Source: a virus
Taxonomy: Duplodnaviria > Caudoviricetes
Virus record (IMG/VR): IMGVR_UViG_3300027708_000015
Length of the DNA: 64,000 nucleotides
Strand: one strand, 5' to 3'
The position numbers were made by a program, and so were the translations under genes. This document shows positions 13,653-14,701 of the stretch, in pieces. Each line of letters starts with the position of its first letter. Within the stretch, counting starts at the first letter, position 1. Under the pieces are notes generated by a model, which was not told where the DNA came from, did not search any database, and worked only from the letters and a program-made list of their open reading frames with translations.

Positions 13653-14480
13653 ATGGCCACAAATCCACTACACAAACATTTTAGACAACCCAAAGTTTTT
13701 ATCAAACTGCCGTCAGGCGGCATATACAGCCGTCCGGGAAATGTGCAAGGCGACATAAATCAATTGCCGATCTACGGCATGACTGGCATGGATGAAATCA
13801 TCATGAAGACTCCCGATAGCCTGTTGAGCGGTGCCAGTACTGCTCAGGTCATTGCCAGCTGTTGTCCCAACATAAAAGATCCTTGGGATATCAGTGTGAT
13901 CGACATAAACATGATACTGAGTGCTATTAGAATTGCCACGTTTGGCAGCACCATGCAGGTAACCAACACCTGCAGTAATTGCAACACAGAAAATGAATAC
14001 GAGCTGGATCTCAACACCATCATAGAACATTTTATGAGCTGTCACTATCAGGACACTGTGACTTTGCCTGATCTAGTGATCAAACTGCGCCCTCTAAACT
14101 ATCAGCGCAGTACAGAATTCAACATAATCAACTTTCAAATACAACAAAGAATGTCACAGGCCGACTCTATGGAAGCTGGTGAAGAAAAACAAAAAGTCAC
14201 CAGCGACCTGTTCAATCAATTGGCCGACTTGCAAACAGACATATTCAAAGCCATCATTGACAGTGTGGACATAGGCAGTCAAGTGGTAACTGAACGAGAA
14301 TTTATTGACGAGTGGGTGGCCAATTGCGACAAGAGTGTGTTTGATGCTATCAAGCAGACCAATCAGAAAAACAATCAAGCATGGGCCAATCCGCCATTCC
14401 AAGTGACCTGTGACAATTGCCAGCATGAAGCCAAGCTCAGTGTGGAAATGGATGAATCAAATTTTTTCGTCAACGCCTAA
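13653..14480 (+). CDS. gp26: Baseplate hub assembly chaperone (T4 gp26-like)
   Basis: FRQPKVFIKLPSGG, IYGMTGMDEIIMKTPD, DINMILSAIRIATFG, CxxC pairs (CSNC, CDNC) and a C-terminal NFF. Confidence 0.8.
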   Translation: MATNPLHKHFRQPKVFIKLPSGGIYSRPGNVQGDINQLPIYGMTGMDEIIMKTPDSLLSGASTAQVIASCCPNIKDPWDISVIDINMILSAIRIATFGSTMQVTNTCSNCNTENEYELDLNTIIEHFMSCHYQDTVTLPDLVIKLRPLNYQRSTEFNIINFQIQQRMSQADSMEAGEEKQKVTSDLFNQLADLQTDIFKAIIDSVDIGSQVVTEREFIDEWVANCDKSVFDAIKQTNQKNNQAWANPPFQVTCDNCQHEAKLSVEMDESNFFVNA

Positions 14481-14701
14481 TTGGAAAATCTACAGAAGAC
14501 ATCCAGAAACTTCTAGTTAGGCTAGAAAACGAAACCAAAGAATTCAAGCAGGAACTGTTTCGCATATCATGGTACATGCGTGGTGGTGTCACTGTGAAAG
14601 AACTGTTGGAATACTACAGTTTTGAAGATCGTGACATGATATATGTTGTGATCAAAGACAATCTCGAAGCTACCAAAGAAACACGTTTGCCATTGTTATA
14701 A
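14462..14701 (+). CDS. -1 frame ORF fused to gp26 by a probable programmed frameshift (gp51-like/tail-assembly-chaperone extension)
   Basis: Not in the ORF track. Reads FFRQRLIGKSTEDIQKLLVRLENETKEFKQELFRISWYMRGGVTVKELLEYYSFEDRDMIYVVIKDNLEATKETRLPLL*. No ATG/GTG/TTG in its first half; begins at the slippery run A AAT TTT TTC. Confidence 0.65.
   Translation, partial: FFRQRLIGKSTEDIQKLLVRLENETKEFKQELFRISWYMRGGVTVKELLEYYSFEDRDMIYVVIKDNLEATKETRLPLL

What the first reader, a model, noticed from the sequence alone, without database searches (positions are those of the whole stretch)
14451..14701. Probable programmed -1 frameshift fusing gp26 to a start-less downstream ORF (lambda G/GT-like logic in a T4-like phage)
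Seen: gp26 ends TCA AAT TTT TTC GTC AAC GCC TAA. This contains two overlapping X XXY YYZ slippery heptamers in the correct phase: A AAT TTT (14459-65) and T TTT TTC (14462-68). The -1 frame is closed just upstream by TGA (14453-55) and then open for 79 codons to TAA at 14699-14701, with no standard start codon or RBS before the internal MRGG. Known: tail assembly chaperones of lambda, P2 and Mu are made as short and frameshift-extended forms, and are encoded near the tape measure gene. Here the putative tape measure gene is one gene away on the other strand. Inference: gp26 and a gp26-gp51-like fusion (~350 aa) form an equivalent chaperone pair.
Basis: partly seen in the sequence, partly recalled or inferred. 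Interest (0 to 1): 0.72.

Follow-up and report, generated by a model that had tools for sequence, protein, structure and literature searches.

The report
Conserved -1 frameshift in gp26 gene
The baseplate-hub assembly gene (gp26 family) of this uncultured freshwater giant phage very probably makes a 275-residue and a 349-residue protein from one gene because some ribosomes slip back one base at a conserved TTTTTTC run, whereas phage T4 and some other relatives carry two separate genes of the same family, one of them longer at its C-terminus.

Summary
The gp26-like ORF (13653-14480) carries T_TTT_TTC (14462-14468) in the right phase. The -1 frame is closed at 14453-55 and open to 14699-14701. 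The comparative evidence for a programmed -1 ribosomal frameshift is strong:
- The heptamer is present in all 87 relatives examined: 80 IMG/VR contigs plus Atu_ph07, Phosso, PA5oct, RaK2, XaC1, Serratia BF and BF17.
- The -1 frame is under purifying selection from the slip site onward, yet 32 of 60 distinct versions have no ATG/GTG/TTG before codon 39.
- A hairpin with 12 modelled pairs (10 well kept) lies 6 nt downstream and shows compensatory changes.
- About 20 natural single-ORF homologues carry the same extension in frame, and their junction aligns without a gap to the predicted product.
- Slip-site phages have one PF12322 gene. T4 (genes 26 and 51) and the contigs with in-frame long forms have two.

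Not supported:
- The A_AAT_TTT heptamer is not conserved.
- The extension shows no detectable sequence homology to the gp51 tail.
- I found no sequence or fold link to lambda G/GT.

The chaperone role is inferred from T4. I found no published report. The scan reached the same reading earlier on another genome (e1-5319972, e1-5319977).

The parts
13640..13643 (+). Shine-Dalgarno-like GGAG, 9 nt upstream of the gp26 start codon
   Evidence: An SD-like motif precedes the gp26 ATG in 42 of 60 relatives, but precedes -1-frame codon 39 or codon 7 in only 2 of 60.
13653..14480 (+). gp26-like baseplate hub assembly gene, 0 frame. The short product is 275 aa and ends ...MDESNFFVNA.
   Evidence: Pfam PF12322 at 1.9e-15 and 57.6 bits. 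phrog_150 at 5.5e-21. 80 IMG/VR homologues at 40-64% identity. Two invariant Cys pairs and an invariant C-terminal Phe.
14453..14455 (+). TGA that closes the -1 frame just upstream of the slip site
   Evidence: There is no start codon between it and the heptamer.
14462..14468 (+). Slippery heptamer T_TTT_TTC (X_XXY_YYZ) in 0-frame phase
   Evidence: Present in the same phase in all 82 loci and in PA5oct, RaK2, XaC1, Serratia BF and BF17. T4 gp26, which has no -1 ORF, encodes the same FF as TTC TTT.
14469..14474 (+). 6-nt spacer between the heptamer and the hairpin
14475..14522 (+). Downstream stimulatory hairpin. The 5' arm (14475-14486) pairs with the 3' arm (14511-14522), giving 12 modelled pairs (the inner 10 well kept across relatives) and a 24-nt loop. 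The 5' arm contains the 0-frame stop.
   Evidence: MFE -21.1 kcal/mol, z -2.68. Over 33 clade members 92.9% of cells are paired, against 18-53% when the partner is slid. Six pairs show compensatory changes, and 0 of 500 shuffles reach the covariation score. Downstream folding is stronger than control windows of the gene in 38 of 65 relatives; in the window itself it is -15.3 against a control mean of -9.2, 8th percentile.
14478..14480 (+). 0-frame TAA stop of the short form, 3 codons after the slip site
   Evidence: In relatives the first 0-frame stop lies 10, 16 or 19 nt from the first T of the heptamer.
14468..14701 (+). -1-frame extension: 77 codons (RQRLIGKS...TRLPLL) plus TAA. The long product is residues 1-272 of gp26 plus these 77, giving 349 aa.
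   Evidence: Homology to relatives starts at FFR. dN/dS is 0.37 for codons 8-38 and 0.21 for codons 39-79. There are 0 stops in this frame against 324 and 532 in the other two. It folds as a confident 3-helix domain, pLDDT 90.8. Natural single-ORF homologues carry it in frame.

Best explanation
The gene is the only gp26/gp51-family (PF12322) gene found in the window. It is decoded in two ways. Most ribosomes read TTT TTC GTC AAC GCC and stop at TAA, giving a 275-aa short form. A fraction pause on U_UUU_UUC (14462-68) against a hairpin that starts 6 nt downstream. In those ribosomes both Phe-tRNAs re-pair one base back (UUU to UUU, UUC to UUU), and translation continues in the -1 frame with CGU (Arg). 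This adds a 77-residue three-helix domain and gives a 349-aa long form with the junction ...DESNFF-RQRLIG.... The site, the coding of the -1 frame, the lack of a start codon, the hairpin, and the existence of in-frame natural equivalents are shown here by sequence comparison. The actual slip, its efficiency and the ratio of products are inferred. By homology to T4 gp26 and gp51, which the T4 tail review lists as hub assembly chaperones, the two forms are proposed to act together in assembly of the central hub and tape-measure part of the baseplate. In this view the frameshift sets a fixed short-to-long ratio. Phages that lack the slip site carry two separate paralogues of the family instead.
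For: (1) The heptamer xxT_TTT_TTC_G sits in identical phase in 82 of 82 loci spanning 28-64% protein identity, and in PA5oct, RaK2, XaC1, Serratia BF and BF17.
(2) The constraint is on nucleotides and on the -1 frame. The preceding codon changes its amino acid (N, S, T, H) but always ends in T. The second Phe is always the rare TTC (Phe elsewhere is TTT 83% of the time). The following 0-frame codon is any of 13 G-initial codons (V, A, G, D, E), while the -1 frame keeps an invariant Arg (CGN).
(3) The -1 frame is open in all loci for 72-75 codons past the gp26 stop, with 60 distinct products conserved from FFR onward. dN/dS is 0.37 upstream of the first Met, and the other frames hold 324 and 532 stops against 0.
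(4) 32 of 60 versions, including the window, have no ATG/GTG/TTG in the -1 frame before codon 39. SD-like motifs precede codon 39 or codon 7 in 2 of 60, against 42 of 60 for the gp26 start.
(5) A hairpin 6 nt downstream is 92.9% paired, with 6 covarying pairs.
(6) A profile search of 1.84 billion proteins finds about 20 cluster representatives of 319-351 aa with the extension fused in frame to a PF12322 domain. Their junction (for example ..DFSNQFRNKLI..) aligns without a gap to the predicted ..DESNFFRQRLI.. and is encoded by non-slippery codons.
(7) Those contigs carry two tandem PF12322 paralogues, one short and one long, and T4 carries two (genes 26 and 51). RaK2, PA5oct, Atu_ph07 and a complete 364-kb IMG/VR genome of the window's clade carry one each.
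(8) A natural long form folds as one well-defined body, pLDDT 94.7 and pTM 0.89.
(9) T6 is unchanged in independent DNA contigs and RNA-library contigs.
Against: No protein, reporter or ribosome-profiling data exist, so the slip itself is not observed. In some relatives an ATG overlaps the gp26 stop: ATGA in Atu_ph07, Phosso and L066, and TAATG in BF17 and Serratia BF. There the extension could also be made as a separate small protein by coupled reinitiation. In the window's clade an ATT often overlaps the TAA stop (TAATT). The FF motif is a protein feature of the whole family: T4 gp26 ends KEFFELL. One short paralogue without an extension (L092) also has AAT TTT TTC. Part of the T-richness is therefore not specific to recoding. 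The hairpin is clear only in the window's clade and is weak or absent in more distant relatives, including RaK2. The assembly function rests on T4 genetics and not on any test here.
Confidence: 0.85

Rival explanations
1. The downstream ORF is a separate small gene of about 70-77 aa. It is translated on its own by termination-reinitiation at the gp26 stop or from a non-AUG start (ATT at 14480 overlapping TAA). The T-run only reflects the conserved FF motif.
For: ATG overlaps the stop in Atu_ph07, Phosso, L066, BF17 and Serratia BF. GenBank annotators called such small CDSs. ATT at -1 codon 7 is common in the window's clade. FF is a family motif also in T4 gp26. T4 gene 26' is annotated as starting at an Ile codon.
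Against: Residues upstream of any such start (R3 and L6 of the -1 frame) are invariant, while the overlapping 0-frame tail varies freely in sequence and length. Codon 7 is ACC, CTx or GTx in many relatives, and no start position is conserved. An SD-like motif is present in only 2 of 60. Natural homologues carry the domain fused in frame with exactly the junction that the slip predicts. Genomes with the slip site carry one family gene, and the genomes and contigs without it that I examined carry two.
Confidence: 0.07
2. The same long protein is made by transcriptional slippage: RNA polymerase slips on the T6 run and shifts the reading frame in part of the mRNAs. Ribosomal slippage is not involved.
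For: A homopolymer run lies at the junction. The sequence alone cannot separate RNA-level from ribosome-level slippage.
Against: Six T is, from my own knowledge, shorter than the runs usually needed for efficient transcriptional slippage. The phase-exact X_XXY_YYZ pattern, the invariant Z = C, and a covarying hairpin at 6-nt spacing are hallmarks of ribosomal -1 frameshifting. Contigs from two RNA libraries carry T6 with no indel, although contigs drop minor variants and may include DNA.
Confidence: 0.05
3. The arrangement is a sequencing error, a broken gene or a chance ORF.
For: Homopolymer runs are error-prone.
Against: The arrangement is identical in 87 independent contigs and isolates and in independent samples. 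The -1 frame is under purifying selection.
Confidence: 0.01

Closest known systems
Phage T4 gp26 and gp51 (baseplate hub assembly proteins, Pfam PF12322 T4_baseplate)
   Same: The N-terminal 272 residues belong to the same family. T4 has a short member, gp26 (208 aa, PF12322 only, ends ..EFFELL), and a long member, gp51 (249 aa, PF12322 plus a roughly 48-aa tail). This matches the short/long architecture here. Both are listed as hub assembly chaperones in PMC3004832.
   Different: T4 uses two genes and no slip site: its FF is TTC TTT, and gene 25 follows gene 26. Here one gene plus a frameshift does the job. The 77-aa extension shows no significant similarity to the gp51 tail: hhalign probability is 0.45% and 1.2%, and natural long forms carry no PF28602.
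Lambda gpG/gpGT and the conserved -1 frameshift of tail assembly chaperone genes of long-tailed phages (Xu, Hendrix and Duda 2004, cited in PMC9024508)
   Same: A -1 slip at an X_XXY_YYZ site near the end of a tail-assembly gene gives two proteins that share an N-terminus. The site is conserved across very divergent phages.
   Different: The protein family differs: the only Pfam match above the curated cut-off is PF12322, and no PDB match stands out. The gene is not placed between the tube and tape-measure genes on one strand. It is divergently transcribed from the neighbouring structural genes. Binding to a tape measure or tube protein was not tested.
Tandem short + long PF12322 paralogues in uncultured phages (contigs L089 and L092)
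   Same: The long paralogue carries the same extension domain (profile E-values 3.5e-27 and 3.8e-25 for the whole proteins in a local search of four proteins), with the same ..F-R-x-x-L-I.. junction. The short paralogue ends ..NFFTDNK.
   Different: The two forms are separate genes. The junction codons are not slippery (CTC TTT CGT and AGT TTC AGA).

Membership tests
-1 programmed ribosomal frameshift site | X_XXY_YYZ heptamer in the 0-frame phase | tested here: met
   T_TTT_TTC lies at 14462-14468. It is present in the same phase in all 87 relatives examined.
-1 programmed ribosomal frameshift site | The -1 frame is open, protein-coding and without its own start, from the slip site onward | tested here: met
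   81 codons are open. dN/dS is 0.37 and 0.21, with 0 stops against 324 and 532 in the other frames. 32 of 60 versions have no ATG/GTG/TTG before codon 39. An SD-like motif is present in 2 of 60.
-1 programmed ribosomal frameshift site | Downstream stimulatory RNA structure about 5-9 nt after the heptamer | tested here: met
   A hairpin with 12 modelled pairs (10 well kept) follows a 6-nt spacer. It is 92.9% paired, with 6 pairs showing compensatory changes, in 33 clade members. It is not clear in distant relatives.
-1 programmed ribosomal frameshift site | Trans-frame protein product observed | not testable with these tools
   No proteomic or reporter data are available. Natural in-frame homologues of the predicted product exist.
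T4 gp26/gp51 family (PF12322 T4_baseplate) | Match to the family profile above the curated cut-off | tested here: met
   57.6 bits against a cut-off of 24.5, covering profile positions 44-212 of 219. phrog_150 at 5.5e-21.
T4 gp26/gp51 family (PF12322 T4_baseplate) | Conserved Cys pairs and a C-terminal aromatic (FF) motif | tested here: met
   Two Cys pairs and the last Phe are invariant in 45 sequences. T4 gp26 ends KEFFELL.
T4 gp51 C-terminal tail (PF28602 in precomputed annotations) | Sequence homology of the 77-aa extension to the gp51 tail | tested here: not met
   hhalign A1 against A3 gives probability 0.45%. RaK2-type extensions against the gp51 tail give 1.2%, aligning only a P-x-E-R motif. 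Natural long forms list PF12322 only. A distant relationship is not excluded.
Lambda G/GT-type tail assembly chaperones | Two products sharing an N-terminus through a conserved -1 slip | tested here: met
   Met at the level of sequence inference.
Lambda G/GT-type tail assembly chaperones | Gene placed between the tail tube gene and the tape measure gene on the same strand | tested here: not met
   The gene is divergently transcribed from the 339-aa, 653-aa and portal ORFs. In RaK2 the divergent neighbour is annotated as tape-measure-like.
Lambda G/GT-type tail assembly chaperones | Sequence or fold similarity to known tail assembly chaperones | tested here: inconclusive
   Pfam gives only PF12322 above its cut-off. 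Foldseek against PDB gives no match with E <= 0.001. VIA-align gives only helical-hairpin matches with Z <= 8.1.
Lambda G/GT-type tail assembly chaperones | Binding to the tape measure and tube proteins | not tested
   No complex prediction or experiment was run.

The most novel reading that the evidence does not exclude
The frameshifted gp26 short/long pair is the counterpart, in T4-like and giant myoviruses, of the G/GT tail assembly chaperone pair. The slip fixes the stoichiometry of two forms that chaperone the tape measure and hub. T4's separate genes 26 and 51 are the unfused version of the same two-form system. This would explain why T4 appeared to lack the otherwise near-universal tail-gene frameshift, and what gp26 and gp51 do.
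Probability: 0.3. Interest if true: 0.8.

Novelty: new variant of a known kind. Interest (0 to 1): 0.62.

Why it matters
Programmed -1 frameshifts in tail assembly chaperone genes are a textbook feature of long-tailed phages, but they are known for the lambda G/GT-type families. Here the same decoding trick appears in a different protein family, the T4 gp26/gp51 hub assembly proteins. It is conserved across a large clade that includes cultured giant phages: RaK2, PA5oct, Atu_ph07, the Asteriusvirus and Eneladusvirus groups, and XaC1. In their GenBank records the extension is either missing or annotated as an unrelated small hypothetical protein.

The finding gives a direct annotation correction. 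It also gives a natural experiment: one gene plus a slip, set against two paralogous genes. That comparison bears on the long-unclear roles of T4 gp26 and gp51. It can be tested immediately in cultured phages.

Tried and rejected
- Homology of the extension to T4 gp51 or gp26. The HMM of the window-clade extension against T4 gp26 and gp51 gave nothing. BLASTP of the RaK2 and BF17 extensions against gp51 was not significant. Profile-profile comparisons gave 0.45% and 1.2% probability.
- Pfam and PHROGs on the extension alone gave no significant family.
- Fold searches. For the extension model, BFVD returned only small uncharacterised phage proteins (TM 0.74-0.80, probably the same ORF annotated separately), and PDB returned nothing. 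For the long-form model, Foldseek against PDB returned nothing, and VIA-align returned only generic helical hairpins with Z <= 8.1.
- A second gp26/gp51 paralogue in the window: none was found. The whole genome is not held.
- tblastn of the 653-aa and 339-aa upstream ORFs against 50,697 phage records gave no match, so the tape-measure assignment stays unverified.
- A_AAT_TTT as a second slippery site is rejected because the preceding codon varies (AGT, ACT, CAT).
- Literature searches for gp26, frameshift, baseplate hub, jumbo phage and RaK2 found no report of this slip.
- RNA-library contigs cover the site without an indel, but they cannot show minor variants, strand or true transcription.

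Full report
**Observation**

The 275-aa ORF at 13653-14480 ends TCA AAT TTT TTC GTC AAC GCC TAA. T_TTT_TTC occupies 14462-14468, with TTT and TTC as 0-frame codons. The -1 frame is closed by TGA at 14453-55 and open to TAA at 14699-14701. Its first ATG/GTG/TTG is the ATG of WYMRGG at 14576.

The ORF is a gp26-family baseplate hub protein: Pfam PF12322 at 57.6 bits against a cut-off of 24.5, and phrog_150 at 5.5e-21. The surroundings are those of a giant T4-like phage. They include a T4-type portal, a 592-aa and a 340-aa ORF that by position and size I take to be gp46/gp47-like (not scanned here), a SegE-like GIY-YIG nuclease, a 2OG-Fe(II) oxygenase and a 5323-aa ORF. The closest isolates by gp26 are PA5oct, RaK2-like phages, Atu_ph07 and their kin, at about 30% identity. 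The window's word-exact holders are freshwater and lake metagenomes.

**Conservation of the slip site**

tblastn with the -1 frame product hits Atu_ph07 and Sinorhizobium phage Phosso directly behind their gp26 genes, with homology starting at residue 3 (FFR...). A scan of IMG/VR with gp26 gave 80 loci at 40-64% identity.

All 82 loci carry xxT TTT TTC G.. in the same phase, 1-4 codons before the 0-frame stop. All have a -1 frame that is open for another 72-75 codons. PA5oct, RaK2, XaC1, Serratia phage BF and Escherichia phage BF17 show the same heptamer and a 73-85 codon -1 ORF beginning FF(R/Q).

The constraint acts on nucleotides and on the -1 frame, not on the 0 frame:
- The codon before the heptamer is AAT, AGT, ACT or CAT, which are four different amino acids, but it always ends in T.
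- The second Phe codon is always TTC, although Phe is TTT 83% of the time elsewhere in these genes.
- The next 0-frame codon is any of 13 G-initial codons (V, A, G, D, E), while the -1 frame keeps an invariant Arg.
- T4 gp26 has the same ..FF.. C-terminus but no -1 ORF, and it encodes FF as TTC TTT.

**The -1 frame is translated from the slip site**

The 60 distinct -1 products are conserved from FFR onward (FFRxxLIxLxxxEIExxLxRLDxxxKxFKxELFRISWYMRGGV...). dN/dS is 0.37 for codons 8-38, the stretch before the first Met, and 0.21 for codons 39-79. The two other frames hold 324 and 532 stops against 0.

In 32 of 60 versions, including the window, there is no ATG/GTG/TTG anywhere in the -1 frame before codon 39, and where one occurs its position is not conserved. 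SD-like motifs precede codon 39 or codon 7 in 2 of 60 versions, against 42 of 60 for the gp26 start.

**Stimulatory structure**

Six nucleotides after the heptamer, 14475-14486 pairs with 14511-14522, giving 12 modelled pairs and a 24-nt loop. The MFE of 14462-14560 is -21.1 kcal/mol, z -2.68. The two outermost modelled pairs are unpaired in 11 of 33 relatives each, so about 10 pairs are well kept.

In 33 members of the window's clade 92.9% of cells are paired, against 18-53% when the partner is slid by 1-3 columns. Six pairs carry compensatory changes, and none of 500 shuffles reaches the covariation score. In more distant relatives the downstream structure differs or is weak.

**Natural in-frame equivalents**

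A profile of the extension was searched against 1.84 billion representative proteins and found 320 hits. About 20 of these are proteins of 319-351 aa in which the extension sits in frame at the C-terminus of a PF12322 domain.

Their junctions (..DFCNLFRAKLV....DFSNQFRNKLI..) align without a gap to the predicted frameshift product ..DESNFFRQRLI... They are encoded by non-slippery codons. This fixes the junction as NFF-R and the long form at 272 + 77 = 349 aa.

Their contigs carry two tandem PF12322 paralogues: a short one ending ..NFFTDNK and the long one. A family search shows two PF12322 genes in T4 (genes 26 and 51), but one each in RaK2, PA5oct, Atu_ph07 and a complete 364-kb IMG/VR genome of the window's clade. 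No second copy is present in the window. In the genomes and contigs I examined, one gene plus a slip therefore goes with the absence of a second paralogue.

**Structure**

The extension folds confidently on its own (pLDDT 90.8) as a long helix, a short helix and a third helix. A natural long form folds as one well-defined body, pLDDT 94.7 and pTM 0.89. Neither model has a convincing match among solved structures. BFVD returns only small uncharacterised phage proteins for the extension.

**Relation to T4 gp51 and to lambda G/GT**

T4 gp51 is PF12322 (residues 1-201) plus a roughly 48-aa tail, and gp26 is PF12322 alone. The short/long architecture is therefore shared. However, profile comparisons of the extension with the gp51 tail are not significant, and natural long forms carry no PF28602 annotation. 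'gp51-like' is thus supported for architecture only.

The resemblance to lambda G/GT is one of decoding logic. There is no sequence or fold link. The gene is also divergently transcribed from the neighbouring structural genes rather than lying between tube and tape-measure genes. The 653-aa neighbour could not be identified.

**Data from sequencing runs**

Independent DNA contigs (X5, X7) and contigs from two metatranscriptome libraries (X6, X9) span the site with T6 and no indel. One of them (X9) runs from 14402 to 14669. This excludes an assembly error. It is compatible with one transcript covering both frames, but contigs cannot show minor RNA variants or prove transcription.

**Rivals**

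A separate small gene read by coupled reinitiation is possible in relatives where ATG overlaps the stop (ATGA, TAATG). It may coexist with the slip there. It does not explain the conserved residues upstream of any start, the absence of starts in most versions, or the in-frame natural homologues.

Transcriptional slippage on T6 cannot be excluded from sequence. It fits the phase-exact heptamer and the spaced hairpin less well.

**Literature and earlier notes**

Searches found no report of this frameshift. The T4 tail review lists gp26 and gp51 as hub assembly chaperones.

Earlier notes of this scan on another genome (e1-5319972, e1-5319977) reached the same reading. Their lead on T4 genes 26 and 51 was tested here.

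**Verdict**

This is a real, conserved and apparently unreported -1 programmed frameshift in the gp26/gp51 family. I put confidence in the mechanism at about 0.85. The assembly role is inferred.

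Noticed in passing
window 15136-15576 (-) and 14702-15135: A SegE-like GIY-YIG homing endonuclease (Pfam PF19835, 4.6e-32) converges on the frameshift gene. About 430 nt with no ORF of 100 aa or more lie between it and the end of the -1 ORF.
   Followed up: no
window 29457-45428 (+): A single ORF of 5323 aa lies within the structural gene block.
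   Followed up: no
window 10574-12535 (-) and 12544-13563 (-): The two ORFs upstream of gp26 (653 aa and 339 aa) have no tblastn match in 50,697 phage records. Their only family hits are weak and below threshold (WXG100 at 23.4 bits against a 27.3 cut-off for the 653-aa ORF, and a PHROG portal hit at E 0.049 for the 339-aa ORF). The 'tape measure' label is unverified.
   Followed up: partly
L001 2615-2737, L002 2510-2740, L086 2064-2243, L087 2037-2246, L083, L084: GenBank records treat the extension inconsistently. Atu_ph07 calls it from the internal MRGG Met. Phosso, Serratia BF and BF17 call it from an ATG overlapping the gp26 stop. PA5oct and RaK2 do not annotate it at all.
   Followed up: yes
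L092 411-1295: The short PF12322 paralogue of a two-gene phage also ends AAT TTT TTC ACT GAT.., but its -1 frame stops at once (TTT TTT CAC TGA). The T-rich NFF motif therefore exists without an extension.
   Followed up: partly
L088 2803-3090 (T4 gene 26'): T4 annotates an internal in-frame product 26' that starts at an Ile codon. T4 gene 26 thus also gives two products, but they share the C-terminus rather than the N-terminus.
   Followed up: no
window 14492: One RNA-library contig (run X6) reads T instead of A. This is a Thr-to-Ser change in the -1 frame, inside the hairpin loop. It is probably a strain variant.
   Followed up: no
window 15845-16444 (-): A 2OG-Fe(II) oxygenase (PF13759, 5.4e-12) lies next to the ORFs I take to be gp46/gp47-like, as in cyanophage-type T4-like genomes.
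   Followed up: no
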